Shown piece by piece: positions 853 to 43,863 of a DNA stretch of 44,494 bases. A model generated the notes under the pieces. It saw nothing but the letters and a program-made list of their open reading frames with translations, was not told where the DNA came from and did not search any database. Position numbers and translations under genes: made by a program. Source of the stretch: a bacterium. Its GTDB lineage: Bacteria; Actinomycetota; Coriobacteriia; Coriobacteriales; Atopobiaceae. The stretch is taken from NCBI GenBank assembly GCA_963591565.1, contig CAVAUD010000002.1:1-44494 (forward strand), given 5' to 3'. Every line of letters starts with the position of its first letter. Positions within the stretch are counted from its first letter, which is position 1.

Positions 853-1119
853 TTACAAGATGAGGCTGAAAACAAGCCGCTCAATAATGCCGAGGGCAAA
901 TATCGCCACAATCGGCGAGAAGTCGATGCCTCCCATAGGCGGGATGATGCGGCGGAAAATCCCCAGGTAGGGCTCGACCAGTATCCCCAGCGCATCGCGG
1001 AAGGTCCCAAGGTTGCCCGAGCCGGGGCTTCTCGGCACCCAGCTCAAGACGCACCAAACCACGATGAGGAACTGGTAGATGTTGAAAAGCCTGGCGATGA
1101 GGCTGGCGATCGAGTACAC
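853..1119 (-). CDS. yggT: YggT/YlmG family membrane protein
   Basis: LSWVP...VEPYL..FRRIIPPMGGIDFSPIVA signature; typical position upstream of divIVA. Confidence 0.92.
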   Translation of the reverse strand: MYSIASLIARLFNIYQFLIVVWCVLSWVPRSPGSGNLGTFRDALGILVEPYLGIFRRIIPPMGGIDFSPIVAIFALGIIERLVFSLIL

Positions 1120-1128
1120 GCGCTCCCC

Positions 1129-1938
1129 CTACTTCCCCGCGAGCTCGGCCGCGCGGGCCAGCGCCGCGTCGACGGCGGCAAAGGAGCCCTCGAACAAGGC
1201 GGGCTCCAGCTCGTAGAGGCCGGCCGCCGTGGTGCCGCCGGGAGAGGTGACCTTCTCGGCATAGGCGCGCGGGTGCTCGCCGGACTGCAAGAGCTGCGTC
1301 GCGCTTCCGGCCATGGTGGCGAGAAGAAGCTCGCGGGCCGCGGCGCTGGGCATGCCGGCCTTGACGGCCGCGCGGGTCAGCGTGTCGACGAAGACGGCGA
1401 AGTACGCGGGCGCGGTGCCTACGACGGCGCCCTCGACCTCGAGCTGGTCCTCGCGCATGACCGAGGCCTTGCCCAGGGCGCCAAAGAGCTCGGCGGCAAG
1501 GGCCACGTCGTCGGCGCCCGCGGTCGAGCCGCCGGCGACGGCGGAGGCGCCGGAGAGCACCTCGACGCAGAGGTTAGGCATGACGCGCACCACGCGGGCG
1601 CCCGGCAGGGCCTCCTCGATGGTCGCGGTGGGCACGCCGGCCGCGATCGAGATGACGCACTTCTCGGCCAGCTGACGGGCGTGGGCCTTCATGACCGCAG
1701 GCAAGACCTGGGGCTTAACGGCGAGAATAACGACGTCGGGGGCCTGTTCCAGCATCTGCGCGTTGTCGGCGAAGGTGGCGAAGCCGGCCGCGGCAAGGGC
1801 GTCCATGCGCGCGTTGGCGTGGCCGGACACGAGGATGCGGCCCGGCTCCATGGCGCCCGCGGCCACAAGGCCCTGCGCGATGGCGCCGCCCATGGAACCG
1901 GCGCCGATGACGCCGAGCTTGATGGAGTCCAAAGACAT
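1129..1938 (-). CDS. proC: Pyrroline-5-carboxylate reductase
   Basis: IGAGSMG Rossmann motif, LAVKPQ, ISIAAGV, RVMPN, VTSPGGTT. Confidence 0.95.
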   Translation of the reverse strand: MSLDSIKLGVIGAGSMGGAIAQGLVAAGAMEPGRILVSGHANARMDALAAAGFATFADNAQMLEQAPDVVILAVKPQVLPAVMKAHARQLAEKCVISIAAGVPTATIEEALPGARVVRVMPNLCVEVLSGASAVAGGSTAGADDVALAAELFGALGKASVMREDQLEVEGAVVGTAPAYFAVFVDTLTRAAVKAGMPSAAARELLLATMAGSATQLLQSGEHPRAYAEKVTSPGGTTAAGLYELEPALFEGSFAAVDAALARAAELAGK

Positions 1939-1976
1939 GCGAAAAGTCCTAACTGCCTAGGCTGCCTGAGGGCGCG

Positions 1977-2687
1977 TTAGCGCACCAGGTCGCCGTCGGC
2001 CACGAGCTTGTTGATGTCGGCATCGGAAAGCGAGATGCCCTCGGGCAGCACCGCGAAGACGCGGTCGCCCAGCTCCTGCACGGCGCCCTCGAGGCCGAAG
2101 GACAGGCCAAAGCAGAAGTCCAGGATGCGCTTGGCCGTCTCGATGTTGGTGTTGCGGAAGACCAGGACCACGGGCTGGCTGGTCTTGACGCGGCGCACGA
2201 CGGTCTGCACGTCGTCATAGGAGACGGGGCGCAGGACGTAGGGCGGCAGCTGGCCGGAGCTCATGCGCGGCTTGGGCGTGAGGCCCAGGTCGGCGGGAGT
2301 CGTGGTGGGGGCGCCCAGCTGGGTCTCGTAGGAGTGCGAGTGGGTCTGGGTGCTCACGGGCTGCTGGGGCGCGTAGTTGCGCACGGGAGCGGCGCTGGCG
2401 GGCTGCGGGGTCGGGGTCACCGGGGTAAACGCGGCCGAGGTCGCGGCAGGTGCCGGGGCAACGGCGCGGCCGCTGCGGGTGTAGACCGAGACGCTCTCGG
2501 CCTCGGGGCGCGGCGTGTTGCCGAGAAGGCCCCTCGAGGGAGCGGGATCGGCGGCCTGGCGCGGCTCGTCGTCGTAGCGGCCGTAGCCGCCCTGGTCGGC
2601 GCCGTCGTCGTAGTAGTCGTCCTCGTAGTAGTCGTCCTCATACGAGTCGCCGCGCAGACGGTCCTTGATGTTATCGAGAAACCCCAT
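1977..2687 (-). CDS. sepF: Cell division protein SepF
   Basis: Amphipathic N-terminus MGFLDNIKDRL, long linker, C-terminal RPVSYDDV...AKRILDFCFG...G SepF domain. Confidence 0.9.
   Translation of the reverse strand: MGFLDNIKDRLRGDSYEDDYYEDDYYDDGADQGGYGRYDDEPRQAADPAPSRGLLGNTPRPEAESVSVYTRSGRAVAPAPAATSAAFTPVTPTPQPASAAPVRNYAPQQPVSTQTHSHSYETQLGAPTTTPADLGLTPKPRMSSGQLPPYVLRPVSYDDVQTVVRRVKTSQPVVLVFRNTNIETAKRILDFCFGLSFGLEGAVQELGDRVFAVLPEGISLSDADINKLVADGDLVR
2608..2637. repeat. 15-bp tandem duplication inside sepF (EDDYY x2)
   Basis: TCGTAGTAGTCGTCC occurs twice (2608-2622, 2623-2637). Confidence 0.8.
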
Positions 2688-2768
2688 GTCAGTGCCCTTC
2701 TCTTAAAAACGCGCGGGCGCGCGTCGTAGCTTCTTGAATCAGTGCCGCGGGGCCGTGCTCCCCCGCCG

Positions 2769-3500
2769 CTAGTCGCCCATGTCGTACTCCGGGCTAAAAA
2801 CCGTCCTTCCGAGCCTCACGAGCGTCGAGCCCTCCTCGACGGCGATGTCGAAGTCGTCGCTCATGCCGCACGAGAGGGTCTCTAAAGACATACCCGTGCG
2901 AGAAGAAAGCTCGTCTCGCAGCTCGCGAAGTCCGCAAAACGTGCGCCTCGCGCAGTCCGGGTCGGCCTTAGGGGCCATCGTCATGAGGCCGCGCACGCGA
3001 ATGCCGCCCAGCTCACAGACGTCGTCGACCGCGGCGCGCAGCTCATCGGGAGAAAAGCCCGATTTGCTCTGCTCGCCCGAGACGTTGGTCTCCAGCAAGA
3101 CGTCGACGCAAAGGCCGGCCCTCTCGGCGCGCTCGGACACCTGGCGGGCAAGCTCTGCCGAGCTGATCGAATGGATCAGGCAGCACTTGCCGATGACCTG
3201 GTTGATCTTGTTCTTCTGCAGGTTGCCGATAAGGTCGAAGCGGGCCTCGGCCATCTGCGGGTGCTCCGCCACGAAGGCCAGCTTGCGGTTGAGCTCCTGC
3301 GGGCGGTTCTCGGCAAAAGCGGTGTAGCCCGCCTGCCAGGCGCAAAGCACGGCCTCGGGCTCGACCGTCTTGGAGACGGCGAGAAGCCCGATCTCGCTCG
3401 CGTCGCGGCCGGACTTGGCCGCGGCGCGCGCAAGCTTGGCCAGGATGGCCTCGCGGCGCTCGCGAAGGAACTCGGTGTATGACTCGTTGTCGAATGCCAT
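2769..3500 (-). CDS. yggS: YggS/PLPBP pyridoxal phosphate homeostasis protein
   Basis: LAVSKT PLP lysine, ENRPQE, IGNLQKNK, GLMTM, SCGMSDDF..AVEEGSTLVRLG. Confidence 0.95.
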   Translation of the reverse strand: MAFDNESYTEFLRERREAILAKLARAAAKSGRDASEIGLLAVSKTVEPEAVLCAWQAGYTAFAENRPQELNRKLAFVAEHPQMAEARFDLIGNLQKNKINQVIGKCCLIHSISSAELARQVSERAERAGLCVDVLLETNVSGEQSKSGFSPDELRAAVDDVCELGGIRVRGLMTMAPKADPDCARRTFCGLRELRDELSSRTGMSLETLSCGMSDDFDIAVEEGSTLVRLGRTVFSPEYDMGD

Positions 3501-4340
3501 TTAGGCCACGACCTTAGGTTTGTCTTGAGCCGGCGCCGCCTTGTGCAGGACCGCGACGGCGGCGTGCCTTCCGCACTTGCCGCCCTCGGCCCTATACGAG
3601 AAGAACCGGTGGGTGTTGCTGGCCGTCGAGTCCTCGCACACGGCGATGTTCCCGGGCGCGATTCCGGCGGAAAGAAGTGCCTCACACACGCAGAATCCAA
3701 GGTCAAGGTGGCTGTCGCCGGCATCGCAGCCAGGCCCGAACTTGGCCGTGAACCGCTCAAGCAGCTCGGCCGAGACCTCGTAGTCGGCCGCGCCGATGTG
3801 CGGCCCCACGTAGGCGAGAAGCTCGCCGGGCTCGCAGCCCACGGCCGCGGCCAGCTCACGCGCGGTCTTCTCGCCGATGCGGGCGATGGTCCCGCGCCAC
3901 CCGGAGTGGGCGATCGCGAAGCCGCGGCCCGCCGGGTCGACCAAGACGACCGGCACGCAGTCGGCGAAGCACAGCATCACGGGGACGTCGGCCGCCGTGC
4001 ACACGACGGCGTCGACACCCTCCTTGACCTGGGCTTGGATGGCCGCAAGCGCATCGGCATCGCCGCAGTCGACGACCGCGACGTCGTCGCCGTGGACCTG
4101 GTGCGGGTTGACGAGGCGGCCGTAGAGCCCCTCGGCGCCCACGCAGGCCAGCGCAAGCCGGCGGTTCTTCTCGACGCAGGCAGGGTCGTCGCCGCAAGAG
4201 GCGCCCAGGTTGAGCGAGGCCCACTGGCCGCCCGAAACGCCGCCGCAACGCTCGGTGAACGCAAAGCTGACCTGCTCACAGACGCAATCGTCCGTGAGCC
4301 AGGCCAGCTCGTTAGCGGTATGTCTTACCAAAGACGCCAC
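3501..4340 (-). CDS. pgeF: PgeF/YfiH (YlmD) family protein
   Basis: FTERCGGVS, SLNLG, HQVHG, ADCVPV, AHSGWRG, FFSYR; directly after ftsZ. Confidence 0.92.
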   Translation of the reverse strand: MASLVRHTANELAWLTDDCVCEQVSFAFTERCGGVSGGQWASLNLGASCGDDPACVEKNRRLALACVGAEGLYGRLVNPHQVHGDDVAVVDCGDADALAAIQAQVKEGVDAVVCTAADVPVMLCFADCVPVVLVDPAGRGFAIAHSGWRGTIARIGEKTARELAAAVGCEPGELLAYVGPHIGAADYEVSAELLERFTAKFGPGCDAGDSHLDLGFCVCEALLSAGIAPGNIAVCEDSTASNTHRFFSYRAEGGKCGRHAAVAVLHKAAPAQDKPKVVA

Positions 4341-5645: not shown

Positions 5646-5764
5646 GTGTCAAAGCGCCGTATATTGGCACATCTTCAACCCTCAAGTCAAACTGTATGGA
5701 CGAACGGTGAAAACCGCAGGTCAAACGCCTGCCGCTCACCTTTGCCAATGTGGCGAGAAGACCT

Positions 5765-7021
5765 CTACTGCTCGTCCGTCTCCTCCCCCGTCGAGCTCGA
5801 GCCCTGCGATGAGGCGCTCGCAGACGCAGAGCCGCTCGAGCTCGAGGAGCCCGAAGACCCCGTCGCGCTGGTCCCCGTGGCCGCCGTGCCCGCCTGGACA
5901 TCGGTCGACGAGATCTTTCTCACCGTGGTGTTCGAAGGCGTGCGCACGTTGATGTAGGTCAGCTGGTTGGGGTACTTGGCGATGAGGCTCTCGACGACCT
6001 GCTCCTTGTAGCTGATGTTGGTGGCAGAGCCCAGCGACACCTCGACCCCGCTCGCAAGCACGCACGAGATGGCGTCCGAGCTGGGGGCGTCGTAGCTCAC
6101 GACCTGGCTGGAGAAGCTGGACGAGAAGCCCTCGCGAAACTCCCTCACCGTGGCGAGCATGGTGTCGCTCGCGTAGGCTCCGGCCTCGGGGCTCACCGAC
6201 GCGGGCACACCCGTGACCAAGATGACGTTGTTCTCGCGCGCGACGGCCAAAGCGGCGTCGTTGACGGACTCACCGTCTGCGACAGAGATCTTGCACGGCT
6301 CGATCCAACAGTTGTTCTGGCCCAAATACCAGGCGATCGAGCCCGAGGTCATGACGACCAGCGAGTCGGGGACCTGCTCGTTGATGACGACCTTCAAGGT
6401 ATGCGGGAACTGCTTCTCGAAGCTCACCGAGGCCACCCACGGGTTCTTCTTGAGGCCCGCCTCGACCTTCTCCTCGTCCAAGTTAAGCAGGGTCGAGCCG
6501 GCGTCGACCTTCAAGAGCTTCTGGATGTCGTCGGCCGTCACGTGGGTCGTGGGGTCGGCCACCACGTCGTCGATCGAGAAGAACGACGAGTCGCGCAAGA
6601 GGACCAGGGCGAGAAGGGCCGCCAGGCCCAGGGCGAAGATGGCGCCGATGACGCCCATGGCGATCTTCATCGACTGCGCCCGCTGGTGCCTCTCGCGGCG
6701 CTCCTTGCCCGTGGTGGGCCCGGGGTTGCGCCGGGCCGCCACGCGCGCGGCGACGTTGGCGCCCGAAAGGCCGTCCGCGGCCTGCTTCTTCTTGTTGTTG
6801 TTCTTGCTGAGAAACGACGGCATGGAGCCCGCGGAGGCCGCCTTAGCGGCCGGTCGGGCCGAGGGCCGAGCTGCGGGCCGAGCTGCGGGCCTGGCCGCGG
6901 CACGCCCGGCGGCCGGACGCGACGTGGCGCGCTTACCGGGCGTCGGCGTGCGCTTAGAGCCCGCCGCGGCGTTTCTCGGGCTGCCCTTCCTGGGGGTCGG
7001 CCTCATGCCGGATCCTGCCAT
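5765..7021 (-). CDS. ftsQ: Cell division protein FtsQ/DivIB
   Basis: Basic N-tail, single TM, POTRA-like region (..KNPWVASVSFEKQFPHTLKVVINE), C-terminal YINVRTP; between murB and ftsZ; start ATG 7021 inferred. Confidence 0.88.
   Translation of the reverse strand: MAGSGMRPTPRKGSPRNAAAGSKRTPTPGKRATSRPAAGRAAARPAARPAARPSARPAAKAASAGSMPSFLSKNNNKKKQAADGLSGANVAARVAARRNPGPTTGKERRERHQRAQSMKIAMGVIGAIFALGLAALLALVLLRDSSFFSIDDVVADPTTHVTADDIQKLLKVDAGSTLLNLDEEKVEAGLKKNPWVASVSFEKQFPHTLKVVINEQVPDSLVVMTSGSIAWYLGQNNCWIEPCKISVADGESVNDAALAVARENNVILVTGVPASVSPEAGAYASDTMLATVREFREGFSSSFSSQVVSYDAPSSDAISCVLASGVEVSLGSATNISYKEQVVESLIAKYPNQLTYINVRTPSNTTVRKISSTDVQAGTAATGTSATGSSGSSSSSGSASASASSQGSSSTGEETDEQ
6863..6886. repeat. 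12-bp tandem repeat encoding AARP in the FtsQ N-tail
   Basis: GGGCCGAGCTGC occurs twice, with degenerate flanking copies. Confidence 0.75.
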
Positions 7022-9450: not shown

Positions 9451-10566
9451 TTACGCGTAAGCGGCCTTCTCCACTTGATTTGCCAGAGCAACGGCGGCGT
9501 TTGCCTGCCCCAGCGTCGCGGCCGCGTCGCGCATGGCCCGGCGCGCGTCGGCGTTGGTGAGAAGGTCGCGCAGCTTCGCGTCGAAGGCAGGGGTCTCGAG
9601 CTGGGCGTCGGTGAACATCACGGCGGCGCCGGCGTCGGTCAAGAAGCGCGCGTTGGTCGTCTGGTGGTCGGCCGTGGCGTGCGGGTACGGGACCAGGACC
9701 GAGGGGGCGCACAGGGCCGCGATCTCGGCGATCGAGGAGGCGCCGGCCCGCGAGAGGATGAGGTCGGCGGCGGCCAGGCAGTCGCCCATGTCGTCGATGT
9801 AGGAGACGAGCTTCCAGCGGCCCTTCTCGGCCTCTGTGAGGGCCAGGGCGGCCGCGGCGTCCTCGTAGCCGTCCTTGCCGGTCGACTGCACGACGTAGAG
9901 GTTGTCGATGGCGAGAAGCTCGCCCTTCAGGCGCGCCATGGCCTCGTTGATCGAGCGGGCGCCCAGAGAGCCGCCAAAGACGAGCAGCATCTCGGCGTCG
10001 GCCGGCACGCCCAGGGCGGCGCGGCCGCGCTCGGCGTCGCCGGCGATGACCGAGCGGCGCACGGGGTTGCCCGTCTCGACGATGGGCGCCTTGCCCTCGA
10101 AGGCGGCCGCCGCGGCCGGGACCGAGATGCAGACGGCGCGGGCGTGGTCGGCCATCATCTTGTTGGCCAGGCCCGGCACCGAGTTCTGCTCGTGCAGCAA
10201 ATAGGGCACGCGCGCGTCCTTGCACCAGCCGAGAAGGGCCACCTCGACGTAGGCGCCGAAGCCGATGGCGACGTCGGGGGCGCCCTCCTCCTTGAAGCGG
10301 CGGCCGAGGGCCTGCTTGGCTCGCCAGACCTGCCAAAGCGAGGTCGCGGCCGTCCAGGGGCGCGAGCGGTCGAAGCCCGAGACCTCGATGGGGATGAGCT
10401 CGAAGCCCGCCTGGGGGACGAGACGCCCCTCGAGGCGGCGGGTCTGCCCCACGAAGCGCACGTGGTGGCCGCGGTCGCGCAGCTCCTCGGCGAGCGCCAG
10501 CGCGGGGTTGATGTGGCCCGCGGTGCCGCCGGCGGCGATCACTACCTCAAGTTTCTTGGAAGCCAT
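9451..10566 (-). CDS. murG: Lipid II GlcNAc transferase MurG
   Basis: AGGTAGHINPA, HEQNSVPG, TGNPVR, FGGSLGA, SRAGASS, HQTTNA; real start ATG 10566 (MASKKLEV). Confidence 0.96.
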   Translation of the reverse strand: MASKKLEVVIAAGGTAGHINPALALAEELRDRGHHVRFVGQTRRLEGRLVPQAGFELIPIEVSGFDRSRPWTAATSLWQVWRAKQALGRRFKEEGAPDVAIGFGAYVEVALLGWCKDARVPYLLHEQNSVPGLANKMMADHARAVCISVPAAAAAFEGKAPIVETGNPVRRSVIAGDAERGRAALGVPADAEMLLVFGGSLGARSINEAMARLKGELLAIDNLYVVQSTGKDGYEDAAAALALTEAEKGRWKLVSYIDDMGDCLAAADLILSRAGASSIAEIAALCAPSVLVPYPHATADHQTTNARFLTDAGAAVMFTDAQLETPAFDAKLRDLLTNADARRAMRDAAATLGQANAAVALANQVEKAAYA

Positions 10567-10576
10567 GACGATGAGC

Positions 10577-12142
10577 CTACCTTCTCCTCTGAGGGCCCTG
10601 GTCGCGGCCGCGCAGGCGGTCGGTGGCAGAAGGGCCCAGGTCGATGCGCGAGCGGCCGTTGCTGCCCGAGCCGCCCAAGGGGGTCGAGCGCGGGCGGTTG
10701 CCCTGCTCGCGGGTGTTGCGGGCGGCGCGGGGCGCGCGACCTGCGCGGTCACGCTCGGCGCGGGGGCGCTCCTCTCCCCTGCCGCGGCCCTCGACCACGC
10801 GGAAACCCGAGGTCGCGCCGGCGCCGGAGACGTCCTGCTCGCCACGGCGAGAAGAACGCGGGGTCGGCTCGCCCACGAAGGACAGGCCCGGGTCGCCGGC
10901 GCCCTCGCTCACGCGAAGGCTCCTGCGGGCGCGGTCGTTCTCGGTCTCGGGCAGGGTCGAGTGCAGCGACACCGAGAGGATGACGCCCACCATGAGCAGG
11001 CTCGCGATGATCGACGAGCCGCCGTACGAGATGAAGGGGATCGGCTTTCCCGTCATGGGCATGATGCCGATGACGCCGCAGATGTTGACGAAGAGCTGGA
11101 TGGCCAGCATCGAGGTGCAGCCGGCCGCGATGAGGCGGCCCGAGAGGTCAGAGGCGTGGCGCGAGATCTCGAAGCCCGCCCAGACCAGGACCGCGAAGAG
11201 GACGAGAAGGCCAAGGGTGCCGACAAGGCCCAGCTCCTCTCCGATGATCGCGTAGATGAAGTCGTTGTGGGCCATGGGCAGATAGGCGTACTTTTGCTTG
11301 GAAAAGCCCAGGCCAACGCCAAAGATCCCGCCCGAGCCAAAGGCATAGAAGCCCTGGATGAGCTGGTAGCCGCTGTCAAGGGCGTCGCTCCAGGGGTCGA
11401 GCAAGATCATGATGCGGCTGCGCGAGTAGTCGTCTTTGAGGGCCAGGAACAAGAAGAGCACAAGGCCGATGCCCAGGATGAGAAAGAGCCAGGAGCGGTT
11501 GAGGCCGGCGAGATAGTACATGGCGAGAAGCGTCGCGCACACGATCATGGTCGTGCCCTTGTCGGGCTGGCCCAGAATCGCGGCCAGGGGAATACCGACG
11601 CCGATGAGCAGCAGCTTTATGAACTCGTGGTCGTCGACGCTTCGCTCCTCGTAGTAGCGCTGAGCGATCTCGGCGGCGCAGATGACGATGAAGATCTTGG
11701 CGAACTCCGAGGGCTGGAAGCCAAAGCCGCCGATGTTGATCCAGCGGCTGGCGCCGTAGGCGTCCTGGCTGGTGCCGGGCAAGAAGACCATCGCCAACGT
11801 CGCCATCACGGCGATCCAGAGAGGCTTCGCGAACGTCTTGGTCCAGGAGTGGTAGTCGAAGCGCGTGGCCACGACGGCCGCGACCAGGCCGAGAAGCGCG
11901 TAGCGCAGCTGGCTCTTGACGTGGTACATCGGGTCGTTGTTGTAGGTCGAGCTGGCAAGGTCGGTCATCGAGGACGCCGACCAGATCATGAGCAGGCCGA
12001 AGCACACCAGGATGGCCGTCACGGCGATCAAGATGACGCGCGGGCGCATGAAGCGCTCGGGCGTCGAGGCGATCGCGCGCTTGGCGCCGCGGGTGCCCTG
12101 GGCAGGCCGGCGGCGCTGCCCCTGTGCGATGGCGCGGGCCAC
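10577..12142 (-). CDS. ftsW: SEDS peptidoglycan polymerase FtsW
   Basis: GASRWI, FQPSEFAK, QPDKGT, GYQ, AHNDFIYAIIGEELG, PFISYGGSS; about 110-aa Arg-rich C-tail. Confidence 0.95.
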   Translation of the reverse strand: MARAIAQGQRRRPAQGTRGAKRAIASTPERFMRPRVILIAVTAILVCFGLLMIWSASSMTDLASSTYNNDPMYHVKSQLRYALLGLVAAVVATRFDYHSWTKTFAKPLWIAVMATLAMVFLPGTSQDAYGASRWINIGGFGFQPSEFAKIFIVICAAEIAQRYYEERSVDDHEFIKLLLIGVGIPLAAILGQPDKGTTMIVCATLLAMYYLAGLNRSWLFLILGIGLVLFLFLALKDDYSRSRIMILLDPWSDALDSGYQLIQGFYAFGSGGIFGVGLGFSKQKYAYLPMAHNDFIYAIIGEELGLVGTLGLLVLFAVLVWAGFEISRHASDLSGRLIAAGCTSMLAIQLFVNICGVIGIMPMTGKPIPFISYGGSSIIASLLMVGVILSVSLHSTLPETENDRARRSLRVSEGAGDPGLSFVGEPTPRSSRRGEQDVSGAGATSGFRVVEGRGRGEERPRAERDRAGRAPRAARNTREQGNRPRSTPLGGSGSNGRSRIDLGPSATDRLRGRDQGPQRRR

Positions 12143-12145
12143 GGG

Positions 12146-28794: not shown

Positions 28795-29133
28795 CTACTC
28801 CTCGGGCTCGGAAGCGTCGGCGGCAGGCTCCTCGGCCGCGCCCTCGGCGCCGTCAGAAGCGTCGGCACCCTCGGCCGCGCCCGCCTCGGCCTCGTCGACC
28901 TGGGCGCCCTTCTCCGCCTGCTTCTGCTCCTCGAGCTTAGCCTCCTCCTCGGGCGAGAAGTCCGTGGCGTCGACCATGTCGACGGCCTTCGAGCCCAAGG
29001 CGATGGCCTCGTCGAAGAGGTCCAGGGACTTCTCCAAAGAGACGTCCTTGTCGCGCACGGCCATCACGATGTCGTCAAGGCGCGTCGTGATATCCGAGAA
29101 GGTCTGGTACTTGGAGGTGTCGACGCGGGCCAT
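28795..29133 (-). CDS. xseB: Exodeoxyribonuclease VII small subunit, with acidic tail
   Basis: TFSDITTRLDDIV....DVSLEKSLDLFDEAIAL pattern; nusB-xseB-tlyA synteny. Confidence 0.8.
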   Translation of the reverse strand: MARVDTSKYQTFSDITTRLDDIVMAVRDKDVSLEKSLDLFDEAIALGSKAVDMVDATDFSPEEEAKLEEQKQAEKGAQVDEAEAGAAEGADASDGAEGAAEEPAADASEPEE

Positions 29134-32073: not shown

Positions 32074-32111
32074 CTTCTCGCCAGGCACTTGTTGAGTGCG
32101 CCGGCGAGAAG
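32074..32111. repeat. Inverted pair of the GGCGAGAAG motif between the aroB-like and peptidase genes
   Basis: CTTCTCGCC (32074-32082), 20-nt partly self-complementary spacer (GCACT..AGTGC), GGCGAGAAG (32103-32111). Confidence 0.88.
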
Positions 32112-34641: not shown

Positions 34642-36046
34642 CGGCGATGGCCTGCTGGTGCTCTGCGTAGGTCTTGCTGAAGGCATACTGCGTTACCCCG
34701 TCTTTGGTCCAGAAGTAAAAGTAGAAGTACCCGTCGTCGATCATCGTCTGATCAGGCGAGCAGACGGCCTGCAGCGCCGCGAGGCCCGGGTTGCAGATCG
34801 GGGTCGGCGGCAGGCCCTGGTAGGCGTAGGTGCTGTACGGGTCGTTGGCGTCGTGGACCTCGGTGGCCGAGGGGTCGTGGCCAACAGAGTAGGCGGTCGT
34901 GGCGTCGGACTGCAGGTAGCCGTAGTTGGGCTCGCCCATGTTGCCCAGGCGGTTGTAGAAGACGGCCGCGACCTGCGCGCGGGTGTTCGAGTCGGATTCC
35001 TTCTCGACGATGGAGGCCAGGTTGACCAGCTGCCAGACGGAAAGGCCGCGATTCTGCGCGTACGAGAGGTCGAGCGTGGCCAGCTCGGTCTGGAACTGGT
35101 TGAGCATCGTGCGGATCACGGTGTCTGCCGTGACGCCCGTGTCAAAGGTGTAGGTCTTGGGGAAGAGGAACCCCTCGAGCGAGTCGTTCTGCGCGCCCTC
35201 GAGGAAGCTGTAGTCGGCCACGTAGTTGGAGGCCTTGGCCTGGGCGAGAAACTCGTCGTACGAGATGCCCAGGTTGGAGTCCTGGACCTTCGAGGCGATG
35301 CTCTTGACCGTGTAGCCCTCGGGGATCGTCAAGGTCAACCCGTCGCCGTTGGGGCCGGAGACGAGAAGGTCGATGATCTCGGACGTCGAGGCGCCGGTCG
35401 TGAAGCGGTAGGAGCCGCTCTTCAAGGACTGCTCGGCGCTCATGCGGCGCATGGTCGAGAGGAACTCGGACTTGCTGGCGATGACGCCGTTGTCATAGAG
35501 CAGCTGCGCGATCACCGAGGCGCCCGAGCCAGAGGGAATCTGGATCTCGACGGTGTTGCCTGCCTCGATGGTCTGGCTGTCAGAGGAAGACGACCCAAAG
35601 ACCATCGGCACCACGACAACGACCACGACGGAGACGAGAAGAACGGCCGCGACGATGCCGGCGATGATGAAGTTGCGGCGCGAGTTGTCCTGCCTCTTGC
35701 GGCCACGATCGCCACCCGCGCGGCGGGAGGCGCGGCTCGTCGCCTGGGCGGTGTGGCCCGAGAGGCGCGTCGTGGTCACGCCGGCCGCGGCGTTGATGGA
35801 GCCCGTGGAGCCGGCGGCCGGGCGGCCCTGCCTGCTCTGGCCAGCCGAGGCCGCCGGGGTAAAGCCGGTGGCCTGGCGAGAAGTACCCGCGGCCTGGCGA
35901 GAGAAGCCGGCATCGGCACCGCTTGCGGGCTCGGTCGTCTTAAAGCGCGGGGCACGCGCGGCGGAGCGGCCCTCCTGCTGTTGCTGGCCCCCGAAGTGGG
36001 CGCCCGAGCGGCGAGAGGACGGCTGTCCGTAGTCGTTTGGCATCAC
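34631..36046 (-). CDS. mltG: Endolytic transglycosylase MltG (YceG)
   Basis: TM anchor, LTIPEGY, LEGFLFPKTY, LASIVEKE catalytic Glu, VFYNRL, LQSDAT, GLPPTPICNPG. Confidence 0.94.
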   Translation of the reverse strand: MMPNDYGQPSSRRSGAHFGGQQQQEGRSAARAPRFKTTEPASGADAGFSRQAAGTSRQATGFTPAASAGQSRQGRPAAGSTGSINAAAGVTTTRLSGHTAQATSRASRRAGGDRGRKRQDNSRRNFIIAGIVAAVLLVSVVVVVVVPMVFGSSSSDSQTIEAGNTVEIQIPSGSGASVIAQLLYDNGVIASKSEFLSTMRRMSAEQSLKSGSYRFTTGASTSEIIDLLVSGPNGDGLTLTIPEGYTVKSIASKVQDSNLGISYDEFLAQAKASNYVADYSFLEGAQNDSLEGFLFPKTYTFDTGVTADTVIRTMLNQFQTELATLDLSYAQNRGLSVWQLVNLASIVEKESDSNTRAQVAAVFYNRLGNMGEPNYGYLQSDATTAYSVGHDPSATEVHDANDPYSTYAYQGLPPTPICNPGLAALQAVCSPDQTMIDDGYFYFYFWTKDGVTQYAFSKTYAEHQQAIADAS

Positions 36047-36468: not shown

Positions 36469-39132
<2,664 letters not shown>

Positions 39133-39329
39133 GTTTCATACCTGCATTCACGTGAAAGTTACGCATACAGTTCGAAAGTATACAGCCTGTTTAGCTGCTT
39201 TGCAGGTATTCGCAGGTATTAGGTTTCTCCCCCGCCTAAACCACATAAGGCGCAGGCGGCGAGAAGACCGCGCGAGGGCAACGGCGAGAAGGACGCAGCG
39301 GGCAACAATGAGACAACCGCAGCGGGCCG

Positions 39330-41846: not shown

Positions 41847-41855
41847 GCCGACCCC

Positions 41856-42449
41856 CTACTCTGCGTCGTCGGAGGCGGGCTCGCCGGCCTCGGCCTCGGC
41901 GGCGTCGCCCACGATGGGGCCCTGCTCGCCGTAGACGACGTAGGAGGTCTTCTTCTGCGCGGACTCGGCAACATGCTCGGCCTCGCGAGCGATCTCCTGG
42001 GCAGCAGCGGTGCCCTCCTCGAGCTTAGCGGGCTCGGCCGCGCTCTTGCCAGAGATCTTGTTGGCGACGGCGGTGACGCCCTTGGCGACCCCGTTGACGG
42101 CCCCGCTGACCGCGCTGTTCACGGTCTCGGTCACGGCGGAAGCCGCGCCAGAGACGGTGGACACGTCGCCGAGAATGGCGTTCACGCTCTCAAGGGACTC
42201 GTTGGCGTTGTCGATGGCCACCGAGGTCTTCTCGACCAGGGCGGGAACCTCCTTCACCGCGGGCTGCAGCTCGTCGACCATGCCGTCGAGCTTAGAGACG
42301 ATGGGCTGGGTCTGCGCCAGGATCTCGTTGGCAGAAGAGACGACGTCGTCAATGGACTTGCGCCCGGCCCTCACCGTGAGCGCGAGCTCGACCACGGCCC
42401 AGATACCGGCGATGACAAGAACAACTAAAGCGATGGACAGGTAATCCAT
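41856..42449 (-). CDS. DUF948/YoxC-YtxG-like membrane-anchored coiled-coil protein
   Basis: N-terminal TM followed by heptad repeats; ATG 42449 after GAAGGGG. Confidence 0.7.
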   Translation of the reverse strand: MDYLSIALVVLVIAGIWAVVELALTVRAGRKSIDDVVSSANEILAQTQPIVSKLDGMVDELQPAVKEVPALVEKTSVAIDNANESLESVNAILGDVSTVSGAASAVTETVNSAVSGAVNGVAKGVTAVANKISGKSAAEPAKLEEGTAAAQEIAREAEHVAESAQKKTSYVVYGEQGPIVGDAAEAEAGEPASDDAE

Positions 42450-42488
42450 GACCGCCCCTTCCAAAAAGAGGGAACCCAACGATAAAAA

Positions 42489-42505
42489 GTTGACTCCAAG
42501 TCAAC
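42489..42505. promoter_or_regulatory. Palindromic operator candidate upstream of the DUF948-antisigma-sigma operon
   Basis: GTTGACT-CCA-AGTCAAC, 7 nt downstream of a minus-strand TAGAAT (42513-42518). Confidence 0.55.
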
Positions 42506-42534
42506 AAAGCACATTCTACCCGAGAAAAGCCCTG

Positions 42535-43863
42535 TCAGACCTCACCTTGTGCATCAACTTGGTCTTTGGCGGCGGCGTCTAGGCGCCACGACTCCCAGCC
42601 GCGCGGGCTCGGGTGATAGAAGCACCCCTTTTCCAGCCCTTCCGGCAAATAGCGCTGAGAAACCCAACCGGTCGGGTAATTGTGGGGGTAGAGGTAGGCG
42701 CCGTACTCGTCGGACCCCGGGCGATGACGATCGCGCAGGTAGCTGGGCACTTCTCGCCTAGGACCGTTTCTCACCTCCGCCAAAGCCTCGTCGATGCCCG
42801 CCTCGCAGGCGTTGGACTTAGGGGCAAGAGCGAGGTAGGTGGCCGCCTGCGCCAGGTTGATCCGGCACTCGGGAAGGCCGATGACCTCGACGGCCCTAAA
42901 AGCCGCCTCCGCGACGAGAAGCGCCTGAGGATCGGCGTTGCCCACGTCCTCGGAGGCGCAGATCATGATGCGGCGGGCGATGAACTTGGGGTCCTCGCCC
43001 GCGTCGAGCATGCGCGCTAACCAGTACAGGACGGCGTCCGGGTCGCTGCCGCGCATCGACTTGATGAAGGCCGAGATGATGTCGTAGTGCATGTCCCCGT
43101 CTTTGTCATAGCTCAGGCCATGACGGGGGTTTGCCTCCAGGACATTCTCGGCCGAGATCTCGGCCGGCTCATCAGAGGCCGGGTCGGCGTCGACCATCTG
43201 GCTCGCAAGCTCAAGCGAGGTGAGGGCCGCGCGCCCGTCTCCCCCGGCGAGCTTCACGATCTCGTCCTCGGCCTCCTGCGATAAGACGAAGGCCCCCTTG
43301 AGGCCGTCCTCGCTCGCACAGGCGCTAACGAGCATCGCGCGCAGCGACTCATCGTCCAAAGGCTCGAGCTCCACAACGCGCGAGCGGCTGATCAGGGCCG
43401 AGTTGACCTCGAAGAAGGGATTCTCGGTCGTGGCGCCGATCAGCACCACGACACGGTCCTCCACCGCGTGGAGCAGCGCGTCTTGCTGAGAACGGCTAAA
43501 ACGGTGAATCTCATCGACAAAAAGAATCGTGCGTCGGCCCTGCGTGAGCAGGCGGCTCTCTGCGGCATCGATCTCTCGTCGCAGGTCTTTGACGCTGCCC
43601 GTGACGGCAGAGACCTCGACGAACTCTGCGTGCGTGGTGTGCGCGATGATGCGCGCCAGCGTCGTCTTGCCCGTGCCGGCCGGGCCGTACAAAATCACGG
43701 ACGACAACGTGTCATGCTCAATGGCTCGGCGCAGCCATGACCCCTCGCCCACCGCCTTCTTCTGGCCAAAGTACCCGTCCAGGTTCTTGGGCCTCATCCT
43801 TACGGCGAGCGGAGCGTTGGCGTTCTTAGCCGAGTTCTCTATGCGCGAAAATAACGTATCCAT
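42535..43863 (-). CDS. rarA: Replication-associated recombination protein A (RarA/MgsA)
   Basis: PLAVRMRP, GPAGTGKT, VDEIHRF, GATTENP, YDIISAFIKSMRGSDPDA, ASEDVGNADP, YLYPH; ATG 43863. Confidence 0.96.
   Translation of the reverse strand: MDTLFSRIENSAKNANAPLAVRMRPKNLDGYFGQKKAVGEGSWLRRAIEHDTLSSVILYGPAGTGKTTLARIIAHTTHAEFVEVSAVTGSVKDLRREIDAAESRLLTQGRRTILFVDEIHRFSRSQQDALLHAVEDRVVVLIGATTENPFFEVNSALISRSRVVELEPLDDESLRAMLVSACASEDGLKGAFVLSQEAEDEIVKLAGGDGRAALTSLELASQMVDADPASDEPAEISAENVLEANPRHGLSYDKDGDMHYDIISAFIKSMRGSDPDAVLYWLARMLDAGEDPKFIARRIMICASEDVGNADPQALLVAEAAFRAVEVIGLPECRINLAQAATYLALAPKSNACEAGIDEALAEVRNGPRREVPSYLRDRHRPGSDEYGAYLYPHNYPTGWVSQRYLPEGLEKGCFYHPSPRGWESWRLDAAAKDQVDAQGEV

What the first reader, a model, noticed from the sequence alone, without database searches (positions are those of the whole stretch)
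914..42758. Highly over-represented 9/12-mer GGCGAGAAG(ACC): candidate undescribed uptake or chromosome-architecture signal
Seen: about 38 exact copies by hand count. Plus strand (27): 914, 1318, 3378, 3813, 5752, 6608, 9910, 10846, 11522, 14446, 15180, 15333, 17445, 20441, 21585, 22218, 24627, 26305, 28952, 32103, 32688, 33168, 35875, 36646, 38998, 39258, 39283. Minus strand (11): 3867, 13589, 15966, 22229, 25260, 28655, 32074, 33009, 37171, 38347, 42750. A rough base-composition model predicts fewer than 1 copy. The full 12-mer GGCGAGAAGACC occurs 7 times (5752, 20441, 22218, 33168, 39258; reverse at 3864, 13586). The motif appears in several reading frames (LLA, DFSP, SSR, GEK, RREV) and in intergenic DNA. 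Known: about 1 copy per kb, tolerance inside genes and inverted pairs after genes describe Neisseria DUS and Pasteurellaceae USS, while strand skew describes Chi/KOPS/AIMS. Inference: this is a lineage-specific DNA signal. I know no description of it in Coriobacteriia but cannot search. Caveat: most minus-strand copies (GEK) use ordinary preferred codons.
Basis: partly seen in the sequence, partly recalled or inferred. Interest (0 to 1): 0.85.

Follow-up and report, generated by a model that had tools for sequence, protein, structure and literature searches.

The report
Candidate DNA uptake word in Coriobacteriales-like genome
A 9-to-12-base word, GGCGAGAAG(NNC), is written about 1,300 times into this small bacterial genome in the way known only for the DNA "uptake sequences" of Neisseria and Haemophilus, which suggests that this little-studied group of bacteria recognises and takes up its own kind of DNA.

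Summary

- **Abundance.** With 1,330 copies, GGCGAGAAG is the commonest 9-mer in the 2.08 Mb genome.
- **Not codon usage.** Genes hold 909 copies against 304 under synonymous shuffling. CTT-CTC-GCC encodes 494 of 828 Leu-Leu-Ala tripeptides and beats a dicodon null 4.4-fold. Intergenic DNA holds 340 copies against 3-7 expected.
- **No replication polarity.** In a complete congener, 432 of 899 copies lie on the leading strand, while control G-rich octamers reach 0.92-0.95. A KOPS- or Chi-like reading is therefore rejected. The window's 27:11 skew arises because all its genes lie on the minus strand.
- **Other properties.** Copies avoid a mobile island and arise by point substitution at non-conserved sites. 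They raise the Gly-Glu-Lys tripeptide about threefold and often form inverted pairs after genes.
- **Distribution.** Several genera of the family carry the word, as do two other families. Some congeners carry a dialect, GGCAAGAAG.
- **Machinery.** comEA, comEC, dprA and a Tad/Flp pilus locus are present.

Best reading: a DUS/USS-like uptake signal. Uptake itself is untested. My literature searches found no description of it.

The parts
914..922 (+). copy; antisense to a minus-strand gene, frame 2; 12th base G
1318..1326 (+). copy; gene strand reads CTT-CTC-GCC (Leu-Leu-Ala); 12th base G
3378..3386 (+). copy; Leu-Leu-Ala frame; 12th base C
3813..3821 (+). copy; Leu-Leu-Ala frame; 12th base C; faces the copy at 3867 (54 nt away)
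3867..3875 (-). copy; sense, Gly-Glu-Lys frame; full 12-mer GGCGAGAAGACC (3864-3875)
5752..5760 (+). copy; intergenic; full 12-mer ...ACC
6608..6616 (+). copy; Leu-Leu-Ala frame; ...GGC
9910..9918 (+). copy; Leu-Leu-Ala frame; ...CTC
10846..10854 (+). copy; antisense frame 1 (in the ftsW-like gene); ...AAC
11522..11530 (+). copy; Leu-Leu-Ala frame; 12th base T
13589..13597 (-). copy; sense Gly-Glu-Lys frame (Mur ligase gene); full 12-mer ...ACC (13586-13597)
14446..14454 (+). copy; Leu-Leu-Ala frame; ...CGC
15180..15188 (+). copy; Leu-Leu-Ala frame; 12th base A
15333..15341 (+). copy; Leu-Leu-Ala frame; ...GAC
15966..15974 (-). copy; sense Gly-Glu-Lys frame; ...GTC
17445..17453 (+). copy; Leu-Leu-Ala frame (PBP transpeptidase gene); ...GGC
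20441..20449 (+). copy; intergenic; full 12-mer ...ACC
21585..21593 (+). copy; antisense frame 2; 12th base A
22218..22226 (+). copy; intergenic, between the CTP synthase gene's start and the 3' end of the gene at 21176-22069; left arm of the inverted pair GGCGAGAAGACCTTCTCGCC; full 12-mer
22229..22237 (-). copy; intergenic; right arm of the same inverted pair (offset 11)
24627..24635 (+). copy; Leu-Leu-Ala frame; ...GGC
25260..25268 (-). copy; sense Gly-Glu-Lys frame; ...ATC
26305..26313 (+). copy; antisense frame 1; 12th base A
28655..28663 (-). copy; sense Gly-Glu-Lys frame; ...GTC
28952..28960 (+). copy; antisense frame 2; ...TCC
32074..32082 (-). copy; intergenic; divergent pair with 32103 (offset 29)
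32103..32111 (+). copy; intergenic; divergent pair with 32074
32688..32696 (+). copy; Leu-Leu-Ala frame; ...GGC
33009..33017 (-). copy; sense Gly-Glu-Lys frame; ...GCC
33168..33176 (+). copy; Leu-Leu-Ala frame; full 12-mer ...ACC
35875..35883 (+). copy; antisense frame 1; ...TAC
36646..36654 (+). copy; Leu-Leu-Ala frame (alaS); ...GGC
37171..37179 (-). copy; sense Gly-Glu-Lys frame (alaS); ...TAC
38347..38355 (-). copy; sense Gly-Glu-Lys frame (alaS); ...CTC
38998..39006 (+). copy; Leu-Leu-Ala frame (alaS); 12th base G
39258..39266 (+). copy; intergenic; full 12-mer ...ACC; direct pair with 39283 (offset 25)
39283..39291 (+). copy; intergenic; ...GAC
42750..42758 (-). copy; sense frame 1; ...TGC

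Best explanation
Y-GGCGAGAAG-NN-C is a DNA uptake signal of the DUS/USS kind: a short double-stranded word that marks DNA as the cell's own kind.

**Proposed mechanism.** A surface component of the transformation machinery binds DNA that carries the word better than DNA that lacks it. This genome encodes ComEA, ComEC, DprA, a Tad/Flp pilus locus and a second type-IV-filament-like locus. Fragments with the word, or with near-matches improved by mutation, are therefore taken up more often. They then replace their chromosomal homologues by recombination. Over time this molecular drive writes the word wherever the genome tolerates it:
- in spacers, mostly just after genes;
- at synonymous sites of Leu-Leu-Ala and Gly-Glu-Lys codons;
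- to some extent at the level of protein sequence.

The specificity has drifted within the genus, giving the GGCAAGAAG dialect.

**Shown here.** The word's hyper-abundance, its independence of codon and dicodon usage, and its intergenic excess. Also its lack of replication polarity, its absence from an acquired island, and its origin by point substitution at sites that are not conserved between species. Also the inflation of the encoded tripeptide, the dialects, and the presence of the uptake genes.

**Inferred.** That the organism is competent, that uptake is sequence-biased, and which protein is the receptor.
For: **1. Abundance.** 1330 copies in 2.08 Mb make this the top 9-mer. The composition-matched reversed word occurs 38 times. 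The published benchmark is fewer than 10 expected against 1471 and 1965 copies in H. influenzae and N. gonorrhoeae (PMC1939737, Introduction read).

**2. A DNA-level cause.**
- Synonymous shuffling of 1470 CDS gives 304 +/- 10.5 copies against 909 observed. By frame: Leu-Leu-Ala 440 against 23.8, and the four off-frames 134 against about 16.
- CTTCTCGCC encodes 494 of 828 Leu-Leu-Ala tripeptides although CTT is a 15% codon.
- Under the dicodon null it is 494 against 113, the highest tricodon ratio in both G000 and G009.

**3. Intergenic excess.**
- 340 copies against 2.9-7.0 expected (Markov order 0-2) in G000, and 372 against 4.3-8.5 in G009.
- 26% of copies lie in the 13% of the genome that is non-coding.
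- 180 of 320 intergenic copies tested have unique flanks, and the largest flank cluster has 9 members, so one repeat element did not spread them.
- The benchmark is more uptake sequences in non-coding DNA than expected, with 65% and 35% inside ORFs (PMC1939737). Here 74% are inside ORFs.

**4. [quoted passage not shown] There 432 of 899 copies are on the leading strand; intergenic copies split 184 against 197. Positive controls TGGGGGAG and CGGGGGAG score 0.95 and 0.92.

**5. Strict core.** In intergenic DNA, variants at word positions 4-7 sit near expectation. The perfect word (340) outnumbers every single-mismatch variant at least 4.6-fold.

**6. Effect on the proteome.** Gly-Glu-Lys occurs 393 times against 129 expected; its permutations occur 88-264 times. 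The benchmark is that uptake sequences about doubled their encoded tripeptides (PMC2817400, abstract).

**7. Absent from acquired DNA.** The longest motif-free stretch of G009 is 74.7 kb with GC 0.607. It carries two integrases, an IS transposase, AbiEii, GmrSD and ResIII/SNF2 genes. The benchmark is that genes without homologues lack uptake sequences (PMC2817400, abstract).

**8. Origin by substitution.** Of 511 G000 sites alignable to G009, out of 1330, the word is intact in G009 at 106 (20.7%). Control 9-mers in the same alignments are intact at 19.8%. The commonest counterparts are synonymous Leu variants, GGCCAGAAG (30) and GGCCAGCAG (15).

**9. Inverted pairs.** There is an excess of convergent pairs: 21 in G000 and 49 in G009 within 30 nt, mostly intergenic. 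Copies in spacers pile up just after the upstream stop codon.

**10. Phylogenetic pattern.**
- The word is high in genera g1, g15, g17, g19, g22, g23 and g26 of the family, and in G026 (family f9) and G217 (family f13), out of 201 genomes searched.
- The G026 sample shows the same signature: intergenic 23 against 0.4, and CTTCTCGCC at 73 of 154 Leu-Leu-Ala sites.
- Dialect: GGCAAGAAG occurs 547-654 times in the three congeners with the fewest GGCGAGAAG copies among genomes at least 90% complete, and 125-189 times in the eight richest.
- In the G011 sample GGCAAGAAG is intergenic 23 times against 1.6 expected, and CTTCTTGCC is the top Leu-Leu-Ala triplet at 31 of 123.

**11. Machinery.** comEA plus comEC (contig C63), dprA (C58), a Tad locus (CpaB, TadZ, TadA, TadB, TadC, Flp-like, TadE) and no N_methyl pilin. 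This is the gene set described for the transformable actinobacterium Micrococcus luteus (PMC6370729, passages read).
Against: **No experiment.** Neither competence nor biased uptake is known for this organism. I found no report of either in four searches.

**The uptake genes do not track the word.**
- comEC is present in 30 of 31 relatives and comEA in 31 of 31, whatever their motif count.
- TadA is present in 199 of 201 genomes of the order.
- The DUF4860 filament locus follows clade rather than motif: it was not found in G009, G018 and G026, which are motif-rich, and is present in four motif-poor genomes of other families.
- So no receptor candidate emerges, and gene presence is only permissive.

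**A transcription-strand bias exists in spacers.** Copies oriented like the flanking genes number 64 against 112 opposite in G000, and 97 against 146 in G009. Uptake alone does not predict this.

**Single-mismatch variants are commoner than in H. influenzae.** Genome-wide, my sum of the 27 variants is 4132 against 1330 perfect copies. In intergenic DNA it is 472 against 340. H. influenzae has 764 against 1471 (PMC1939737).

**Few pairs look like terminators.** Only 3 of 21 (G000) and 8 of 49 (G009) inverted pairs carry a T-run.

**The computed properties are not exclusive.** Any protein-recognised word spread by biased repair or conversion would share them.

**Technical limits.** Gene calls come from my own codon-model caller (86.7% coding in G000, 81.8% in G009), so the intergenic class holds some missed genes. 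Genome counts are not normalised for GC content.
Confidence: 0.5

Rival explanations
1. The word is the target of an unknown intracellular sequence-specific system that has nothing to do with uptake. Candidates are a self-marking, modification or short-patch-repair system, biased gene conversion, or an abundant nucleoid protein. The system would favour the word and so enrich it genome-wide.
For: Every property computed here needs only a protein that recognises the word plus a bias toward it. Those properties are the DNA-level enrichment, the strict core, the dialects, the absence from an island and the lack of replication polarity.

The uptake genes do not co-vary with the word.

The bias relative to transcription in spacers hints at an intracellular constraint.

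Hyper-abundant words of unknown function exist elsewhere, such as HIP1 of cyanobacteria. That example is recalled and was not looked up.
Against: Very-short-patch repair at 5-base sites is the only repair-driven word bias I know of (recalled). No such system is known to produce 50-100-fold enrichment of a 9-12-base non-palindromic word.

The distribution along the G009 chromosome is roughly even (13-62 copies per 100 kb) and shows no domain structure.

No candidate gene was identified.
Confidence: 0.25
2. The word is a Chi-like recombination hotspot. It would be read by the AddAB/AdnAB-type helicase-nuclease to switch from degrading DNA to loading RecA, which would also mark DNA as self.
For: Two adjacent ORFs of 1094 and 1182 aa, each with a PDDEXK_1 nuclease domain, lie on contig C16.

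Chi sites are over-represented in native DNA and differ between species (established knowledge, recalled).

The word is absent from an acquired island.
Against: There is no leading-strand bias, at 0.48 of 899 copies. Every described Chi is co-oriented with replication (recalled).

The word is 9-12 bases long, against 5-8 for known Chi sites.

The enrichment of 50-100-fold in spacers and the tight inverted pairs are not features of Chi.

RecC was not found.
Confidence: 0.08
3. The word is a structural element of transcripts. Inverted pairs would form hairpins or terminators after genes, and the genic copies would be an unrelated by-product of codon and amino-acid preference.
For: In spacers between co-directional genes, copies concentrate just after the upstream stop codon. 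Counts by fifths of the spacer are 64, 39, 32, 24, 14 in G000 and 92, 60, 49, 18, 22 in G009.

107 of 372 intergenic copies in G009, and 48 of 325 in G000, have TCTCGCC (seven bases of the reverse-complement word) within 40 nt downstream.

Convergent pairs outnumber divergent ones.

GGC-GAG-AAG uses preferred codons.
Against: Most intergenic copies are single, and both orientations occur.

Genic copies exceed the synonymous and dicodon nulls, most strongly in the frame that needs the minor codon CTT.

Few pairs carry a T-run.

The same was argued against a terminator role for DUS/USS (PMC1939737, Introduction).
Confidence: 0.07
4. The word is an FtsK/SpoIIIE-orienting polar sequence (KOPS/SRS/AIMS-like), which was the architecture alternative the first reader raised.
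For: The window shows 27:11. The core GAGAAG resembles the Firmicute words GAGAAGGG and GAAGAAG; those two words are recalled and were not looked up.
Against: In G009, GGCGAGAAG is on the leading strand at 0.481. Values for GGCGAGAAGGGC, GAGAAGGG and CGAGAAG are 0.441, 0.540 and 0.537. A separate family, GGGGGAG-containing octamers, shows the expected polarity at 0.86-0.95.

Gene orientation explains the window's imbalance.
Confidence: 0.01

Closest known systems
DNA uptake sequence (DUS) of Neisseriaceae, GCCGTCTGAA, bound by the minor pilin ComP
   Same: - About one copy per 1-1.5 kb against single-digit expectation.
- Not a palindrome.
- No bias around the chromosome.
- An excess in non-coding DNA, with some copies as inverted pairs after genes.
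- It arises by point substitution.
- It comes in lineage dialects.

Sources: PMC1939737 Introduction; PMC6370729 passages. That DUS has dialects is recalled.
   Different: - The sequence is unrelated.
- The host appears to be a high-GC Gram-positive with Tad/Flp pili. No N_methyl (type IVa/ComP-like) pilin was found.
- 74% of copies are in genes, against 35% for DUS.
- Uptake bias has not been shown.
Uptake signal sequence (USS) of Pasteurellaceae, AAGTGCGGT and ACAAGCGGTC types
   Same: - A 9-base core plus weaker flanks.
- 1330 copies in 2.08 Mb, against 1471 in H. influenzae.
- A majority of copies lie in ORFs, in the reading frames that tolerate them.
- The encoded tripeptides are inflated.
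- Two variant types occur among related taxa.
- One orientation is favoured within reading frames.

Sources: PMC1939737 Introduction; abstracts of PMC2817400 and PMC2346458.
   Different: - The sequence and the phylum differ.
- No bias toward gene termini: the intragenic distribution is flat.
- There are more single-mismatch relatives.
- Uptake bias has not been shown.
KOPS of E. coli, SRS of B. subtilis, and Chi sites
   Same: These are short, G- or purine-rich, over-represented words. The core GAGAAG resembles SRS (recalled).
   Different: Those words are defined by co-orientation with replication. This word has none (0.48), and its enrichment is far stronger.
Flp/Tad-pilus-dependent natural transformation of Micrococcus luteus
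   Same: The gene set matches: comEA, comEC and tad/flp genes, with no comG-type pilins (PMC6370729 passages; PMC4322843 seen in the search listing only).
   Different: I know of no sequence preference or hyper-abundant word reported for M. luteus; this was not searched specifically.

Membership tests
DNA uptake sequences (DUS/USS class, defined functionally) | Competent cells take up DNA carrying the word in preference to DNA that lacks it | not testable with these tools
   This needs uptake or transformation competition assays.
DNA uptake sequences (DUS/USS class) | Hundreds to thousands of copies where fewer than about 10 are expected | tested here: met
   1330 copies. The window holds 38 against 1.13 expected. 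Intergenic DNA holds 340 against 3-7 expected.
DNA uptake sequences (DUS/USS class) | [quoted passage not shown] | tested here: met
   432 of 899 copies are on the leading strand of the complete congener G009, with the origin confirmed by dnaA. G000 itself is a draft and could not be tested this way.
DNA uptake sequences (DUS/USS class) | Excess in non-coding DNA, and genic copies confined to tolerated frames with inflated tripeptides | tested here: met
   Density is 1.24 per kb in intergenic DNA against 0.55 per kb in genes. Of 984 genic copies, 870 lie in two of the six frames. Gly-Glu-Lys occurs 393 times against 129 expected.
DNA uptake sequences (DUS/USS class) | Accumulation by point substitution in pre-existing sequence, and absence from recently acquired DNA | tested here: met
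DNA uptake sequences (DUS/USS class) | The host encodes a DNA uptake machine | tested here: met
   comEA, comEC, dprA, a Tad/Flp locus and a second filament locus are present. Their presence is only permissive, because they are nearly universal in the order.
Neisseriaceae DUS specifically | The word GCCGTCTGAA and a ComP-type minor pilin receptor | tested here: not met
   The word is different. No N_methyl prepilin was found in G000 at E <= 0.1, in a genome 96.7% complete.
KOPS / SRS / AIMS | Strong co-orientation with replication that flips at the origin and at dif | tested here: not met
   Leading-strand fraction is 0.48, against 0.92-0.95 for control octamers.
Chi | Leading-strand bias, 5-8 bases, and recognition by RecBCD or AddAB | tested here: not met
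   There is no bias and the word is 9-12 bases long. An AddAB/AdnAB-like gene pair is present, but recognition cannot be tested here.
REP/MITE-type dispersed repeats | Copies share extended flanking sequence | tested here: not met
   180 of 320 intergenic and 830 of 982 genic copies have no flank similarity to any other copy. The largest cluster has 9 members.

The most novel reading that the evidence does not exclude
This would be the first DNA uptake sequence outside the Proteobacteria. It would be a sequence-specific self-DNA tag in a high-GC Gram-positive lineage that appears to rely on Tad/Flp pili and ComEA/ComEC. It is shared by several genera and at least three families of one order, with a G-to-A dialect switch inside a single genus. 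If true, these bacteria would be naturally transformable. It would also mean that a so far unknown DNA receptor with 9-12-base specificity exists and co-evolves with the genome-wide word.
Probability: 0.45. Interest if true: 0.9.

Novelty: new variant of a known kind. Interest (0 to 1): 0.8.

Why it matters
As far as I recall, and as the papers read here describe, uptake sequences are known from only two proteobacterial families. Only Neisseria has an identified receptor (PMC6370729). A third, independent case in a different phylum with different pili would make three things possible:

- It would test whether molecular drive by biased uptake is a general route to hyper-abundant words.
- It would offer a fresh chance to find a sequence-specific DNA receptor. 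The two dialects within one genus are a natural handle for that search.
- It would predict natural transformability, and so genetic tractability, for a group known mainly from metagenome bins.

In practice, adding the word to donor DNA is a cheap experiment that could open these organisms to genetics.

If the word proves not to be an uptake tag, it is still an unexplained protein-read signal that has reshaped codon choice and about a thousand protein sites per genome.

Tried and rejected
- **Strand listing misread and corrected.** At first I read the capped match list of the genome search as showing 100 of 100 copies on one strand of G009. The list shows forward matches first when capped. The full sequence showed no skew.
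- **First gene caller too strict.** It called only 80.6% of G000 and 71% of G009 as coding, which inflated the intergenic class. I replaced it. One search's shuffle null used the first set, 1470 CDS.
- **Receptor search by co-occurrence failed.** comEC, comEA, TadA and the DUF4860 locus do not track the word.
- **Taxon not named.** The search for related loci returned only metagenome bins. Their titles name three unrelated families for ComEC proteins 80-84% identical to the query, so the labels are unreliable.
- **Literature.** The word and its complement appear in 415 and 356 papers. The 15 top-ranked papers I saw for each carry titles on unrelated subjects, and I did not open them. 'DNA uptake sequence' with Coriobacteri*, 'uptake sequence' with Olsenella, and 'uptake sequence' with Actinobacteria and k-mer each gave 0 papers. 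Subscription journals are not covered.
- **Higher-order Markov nulls.** Orders 5-7 approach the observed intergenic count (ratios 2.3 to 1.1). This is because the word itself dominates its own sub-words, so I do not treat those orders as valid nulls.
- One search was an empty slip.

Full report
**1. The observation**

GGCGAGAAG occurs 38 times in the 44,494-base window, 27 on the plus strand and 11 on the minus strand. 100 dinucleotide-preserving shuffles give a mean of 1.13 and never more than 4. The 12-mer GGCGAGAAGACC occurs 7 times against 0.01 expected.

The window is contig C2 of a 2,081,922-base draft of 182 contigs with 65% G+C. Genome-wide the word occurs 1330 times (687 forward, 643 reverse), or 0.64 per kb.
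- It is the most frequent of all 9-mers. The runners-up are its own overlap CGGCGAGAA (862), its variant GCCGAGAAG (797), and then GCCGCGGCC (712).
- GGCGAGAAGACC is the most frequent 12-mer, with 213 copies.
- The reversed, composition-matched word occurs 38 times.

**2. Gene context, and why the window looks skewed**

Pfam finds families in all 8 minus-strand ORFs I tested: alanyl-tRNA synthetase, FtsW, two Mur ligases, a PBP transpeptidase, CTP synthase, an M24 peptidase and a DHQ-synthase-like protein. It finds none in the 5 long plus-strand ORFs that overlap them.

My codon-model gene caller places all 41 window genes on the minus strand. Of the 38 copies:
- 15 read CTT-CTC-GCC (Leu-Leu-Ala) on the gene strand;
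- 8 read GGC-GAG-AAG (Gly-Glu-Lys);
- 7 lie in other frames;
- 8 are intergenic.

The 27:11 imbalance therefore reflects uniform gene direction plus a preference, in this genome, for the Leu-Leu-Ala frame. It does not reflect replication.

**3. Is it codon usage?**

It is not.
- *Synonymous shuffle, genome.* Permuting synonymous codons within each of 1470 called genes (100 replicates) gives 304 +/- 10.5 copies (largest 326), against 909 observed.
The Leu-Leu-Ala frame is 18-fold over (440 against 23.8). The other four frames hold 19, 25, 39 and 51 copies against 0.1, 0.4, 1.2 and 14.5.
- *Codon choice.* CTT is a 15% codon for leucine, yet CTTCTCGCC encodes 494 of the 828 Leu-Leu-Ala tripeptides. 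The next triplet, CTGCTGGCC, encodes 43.
- *Dicodon null.* This null is conservative because the word inflates its own dicodons. Even so, CTT-CTC-GCC is 494 against 113, the highest ratio of any frequent tricodon. GGC-GAG-AAG is 353 against 182. The same holds in the congener G009: 173 against 36 and 247 against 109.
- *Protein level.* Gly-Glu-Lys occurs 393 times against 129 expected from amino-acid frequencies. Its five permutations occur 88-264 times.
- *Window alone.* The 30 genic copies compare with 9.5 +/- 1.8 (largest 14 of 1000 shuffles).

**4. Intergenic DNA**

With the improved gene calls (86.7% coding), 346 of 1330 copies are intergenic or straddle a gene boundary. The density is 1.24 per kb against 0.55 per kb in genes.

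Markov models of order 0-2 trained on the spacers predict 2.9-7.0 copies where 340 are seen. In G009 they predict 4.3-8.5 against 372. Orders 5-7 approach the observed number only because the word dominates its own sub-words.

Further properties of the intergenic copies:
- Divergent, convergent and tandem spacers have similar densities, 1.05-1.30 per kb.
- 180 of the 320 intergenic copies tested share no flank similarity with any other copy, and the largest flank cluster has 9 members. No dispersed repeat carries them.
- The logo is Y-GGCGAGAAG-N-N-C. The 12th base is C in 86% of all copies and 90% of intergenic copies. By my count from the listing, it is C in 31 of the 38 window copies.
- In spacers the core is strict. 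Single changes at word positions 4-7 are found about as often as expected. Changes at positions 1, 2, 8 and 9 are moderately enriched, for example C at position 2 is 73 against 6.6. The perfect word outnumbers every variant at least 4.6-fold.

**5.

The draft cannot be ordered, so I used a congener. G009 has a single chromosome contig of 2,085,387 bases (the assembly lists 6 contigs), where the word occurs 899 times and is again the top 9-mer.
- Cumulative gene-strand and GC-skew curves both turn at about 0.80 and 1.89 Mb.
- dnaA lies at 1,899,516, which fixes the origin.
- 76% of coding bases are on the leading strand.

The word is on the leading strand in 432 of 899 cases (0.48). Intergenic copies split 184 against 197. 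Related words also show no skew: GGCGAGAAGGGC 0.44, GAGAAGGG 0.54 and CGAGAAG 0.54.

The method can detect polarity. TGGGGGAG (153 copies), CGGGGGAG (183) and GGGGGAGG (153) are on the leading strand at 0.95, 0.92 and 0.86. These octamers are the likely FtsK-orienting words of this lineage. A KOPS-, SRS- or Chi-type reading of GGCGAGAAG is therefore rejected.

**6. Further anatomy**

- *Close pairs are in excess.* Gaps of 30 nt or less number 52 against 19 expected in G000, and 68 against 11.5 in G009. Most are convergent inverted pairs: 21 and 49, of which 16 and 44 are intergenic. The commonest form is GGCGAGAAG-AC-CTTCTCGCC, as at window 22218-22237.
- *Imperfect partners are common.* 48 of 325 (G000) and 107 of 372 (G009) intergenic copies have TCTCGCC, seven bases of the reverse-complement word, within 40 nt downstream.
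- *Few look like terminators.* Only 3 of 21 and 8 of 49 pairs carry a T-run.
- *Position in spacers.* Between co-directional genes, copies pile up just after the upstream stop codon. Counts by fifths of the spacer are 64, 39, 32, 24, 14 in G000 and 92, 60, 49, 18, 22 in G009. Inside genes the distribution is flat.
- *Orientation in spacers.* Copies are more often opposite to the flanking genes: 112 against 64 in G000 and 146 against 97 in G009. I do not fully explain this modest bias. Avoidance of a purine-rich, ribosome-binding-like run on transcripts is one possibility, and that is inference.

**7. Dynamics**

Of the 1330 G000 sites, 511 could be aligned to G009, at a mean identity of 78.5%. 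The word is intact in G009 at 106 of them (20.7%). Control 9-mers from the same alignments are intact at 592 of 2990 (19.8%).

The commonest G009 counterparts are GGCCAGAAG (30) and GGCCAGCAG (15). These are the same Leu-Leu-Ala written with the preferred CTG codon. The copies therefore arise by point substitution, at different places in different species.

The longest motif-free stretch of G009 is 74.7 kb (1,473,059-1,547,751; GC 0.607 against 0.657 for the genome). It encodes two tyrosine integrases, an IS transposase, a ParB-like protein, AbiEii, GmrSD and ResIII/SNF2 proteins. It is an acquired mobile or defence island. Two other long gaps have GC of 0.54 and 0.50.

**8. Distribution and dialects**

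Among 201 genomes of the order (13 families, at least 85% complete), raw counts fall into three groups:
- *High in the window's own family:* genus g1 (278-1330 in this draw), g15 (725-1230 in 6 genomes), g22 (823), g26 (565), g19 (210, 450), g23 (304, 471), and g17 (254-537 in 14 genomes of about 1.5-1.7 Mb).
- *Low in the same family:* g14, g16, g18, g20, g21, g24, g25 and g27 (5-176).
- *Other families:* 282 or fewer in the remaining 157 genomes, except G026 (family f9, 701 copies in 1.4 Mb) and G217 (family f13, 548).

These counts are not normalised for GC content, and related genomes are not independent.

A 400-kb sample of G026 shows the full signature:
- the word is the top 9-mer;
- intergenic copies number 23 against 0.4 expected;
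- CTTCTCGCC encodes 73 of 154 Leu-Leu-Ala sites;
- the flank preference differs (GGGCGAGAAGGAC).

Within the genus the count runs from 221 to 1330 across 19 genomes, and a one-base variant behaves inversely.
- GGCAAGAAG occurs 125-189 times in the eight genomes with 900 or more GGCGAGAAG.
- It occurs 547-654 times in G011, G008 and G005, which have 221-385 GGCGAGAAG.
- Both words occur about 560-640 times in G007 and G010.

In a 400-kb sample of G011 no word dominates the k-mer table. Even so, GGCAAGAAG is intergenic 23 times against 1.6 expected. CTTCTTGCC is the commonest Leu-Leu-Ala triplet (31 of 123), while CTTCTCGCC occurs 5 times. This looks like a dialect switch.

**9. Machinery**

The genome encodes:
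- comEA (SLBB plus HHH_3 domains) next to comEC (Competence plus Lactamase_B domains) on contig C63, and dprA on C58;
- a Tad/Flp locus on C18, with CpaB-like, TadZ-like, TadA, TadB and TadC proteins, two or three Flp-like 68-75-aa proteins, a TadE-like protein, and unknown 670-aa and 146-aa proteins;
- a second filament-like locus on C93, with T2SSF, a 108-aa protein, DUF4860, 153-aa and 174-aa proteins, and T2SSE.

No N_methyl prepilin was found. According to the passages I read in PMC6370729, the transformable actinobacterium Micrococcus luteus has comEA and comEC, lacks comG, and needs Flp pili.

These genes do not discriminate between motif-rich and motif-poor genomes:
- comEC was found in 30 of 31 relatives and comEA in 31 of 31;
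- TadA was found in 199 of 201 genomes;
- DUF4860 was found in 11 of 31 relatives, and it follows clade rather than motif.

An AddAB/AdnAB-like gene pair is present, and RecC was not found.

**10. Comparison with what is known**

The Introduction of PMC1939737 lists the hallmarks of the Haemophilus and Neisseria uptake sequences:
- fewer than 10 copies expected against 1471 and 1965 found;
- 65% and 35% of copies in ORFs;
- not palindromic, with about 10% as inverted repeats;
- more copies in non-coding DNA than expected;
- fewer single-mismatch forms than perfect ones;
- origin by gradual point mutation.

The abstract of PMC2817400 adds that the encoded tripeptides are roughly doubled and that genes without homologues lack uptake sequences. 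The abstract of PMC2346458 adds that one orientation is favoured within reading frames.

The word described here meets all of these except the mismatch ratio. It has 472 single-mismatch forms against 340 perfect copies in spacers. It also lacks the bias toward gene termini that PMC2346458 reports for Pasteurellaceae.

It is not a member of the DUS or USS sequence families, because the word is different and no ComP-like pilin was found. It behaves like them.

I found no description of it. Three targeted searches returned nothing, and the word itself turned up only in papers whose listed titles are on unrelated subjects, among the 15 top-ranked I saw per strand. Subscription journals are not covered.

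**11. Verdict**

The signal acts on DNA, is lineage-specific and is not polar.

The best-supported mechanism is an uptake-sequence-like self tag spread by biased uptake plus recombination (confidence about 0.5). The main rival is an unknown intracellular word-reading system (about 0.25). Chi-like, terminator-only and KOPS-like readings trail behind.

The function rests on analogy. The decisive experiment is an uptake competition in a cultured member.

Noticed in passing
G009 chromosome (L001-L105), genome-wide: TGGGGGAG (153 copies), CGGGGGAG (183) and GGGGGAGG (153) are on the leading strand at 0.95, 0.92 and 0.86. These octamers are the likely FtsK-orienting (KOPS-like) words of this lineage, and they are distinct from the word under study.
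   Followed up: partly
G009:C1:1473059-1547751 (L074-L078): A 74.7-kb stretch has no copy of the word and GC of 0.607. It carries two tyrosine integrases, an rve transposase, a ParB-like protein, AbiEii, GmrSD and ResIII/SNF2 genes. It is probably an integrated mobile or defence island.
   Followed up: partly
G009 chromosome; window 1-44494: GC skew has the opposite sign to the usual one. Cumulative G-C peaks at the dnaA origin (1.89 Mb) and bottoms at the terminus (0.79 Mb). In the window, the strand antisense to all genes is the G-rich one. The strong preference for C-ending codons, together with 76% of coding bases on the leading strand, probably explains this.
   Followed up: partly
G000 contigs C12 (about 26.7-28.9 kb), C13 (about 27.8 kb), C90 (about 7.3-7.5 kb): Short tandem arrays with a period of about 41 nt. 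Each unit ends in ...GTCGCCCGTGCGGC-ATTTTGT-GGCGAGAAG (or AGCGAGAAG). They form the only sizeable cluster of copies with shared flanks (9 copies). Their nature is unknown.
   Followed up: no
G000 genome, intergenic: Other over-represented spacer words exist: CGAGTAGCC (87 sites, with a shared TTCCACTTTAAATT-like flank), CATGCAGAT (80) and TGTCTGATA (19, inside a conserved inverted repeat). They suggest small dispersed repeat families. Some of them lie next to copies of the word.
   Followed up: no
window 10265-13648, 14658-18500, 30927-33488, 37093-39222, 22238-23908 (+): Very long open frames (556-1280 aa) lie antisense to real genes and have no Pfam family. They are shadow ORFs typical of high-GC DNA and are not genes.
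   Followed up: yes
G000:C93:1666-5693 (L111): A second type-IV-filament-like operon: T2SSF, a 108-aa protein, DUF4860, 153-aa and 174-aa proteins, and a T2SSE ATPase. DUF4860 was found in only 11 of 31 relatives.
   Followed up: partly
L153-L156: Metagenome bins encode ComEC proteins 80-84% identical to this genome's. Their titles name Paludibacteraceae, Oscillospiraceae and Bacteroidaceae, so these taxon labels look unreliable.
   Followed up: no
G000:C16:17320-21792: Two adjacent ORFs of 1182 and 1094 aa each carry a PDDEXK_1 nuclease domain, forming an AddAB- or AdnAB-type end-resection pair. RecC was not found.
   Followed up: no
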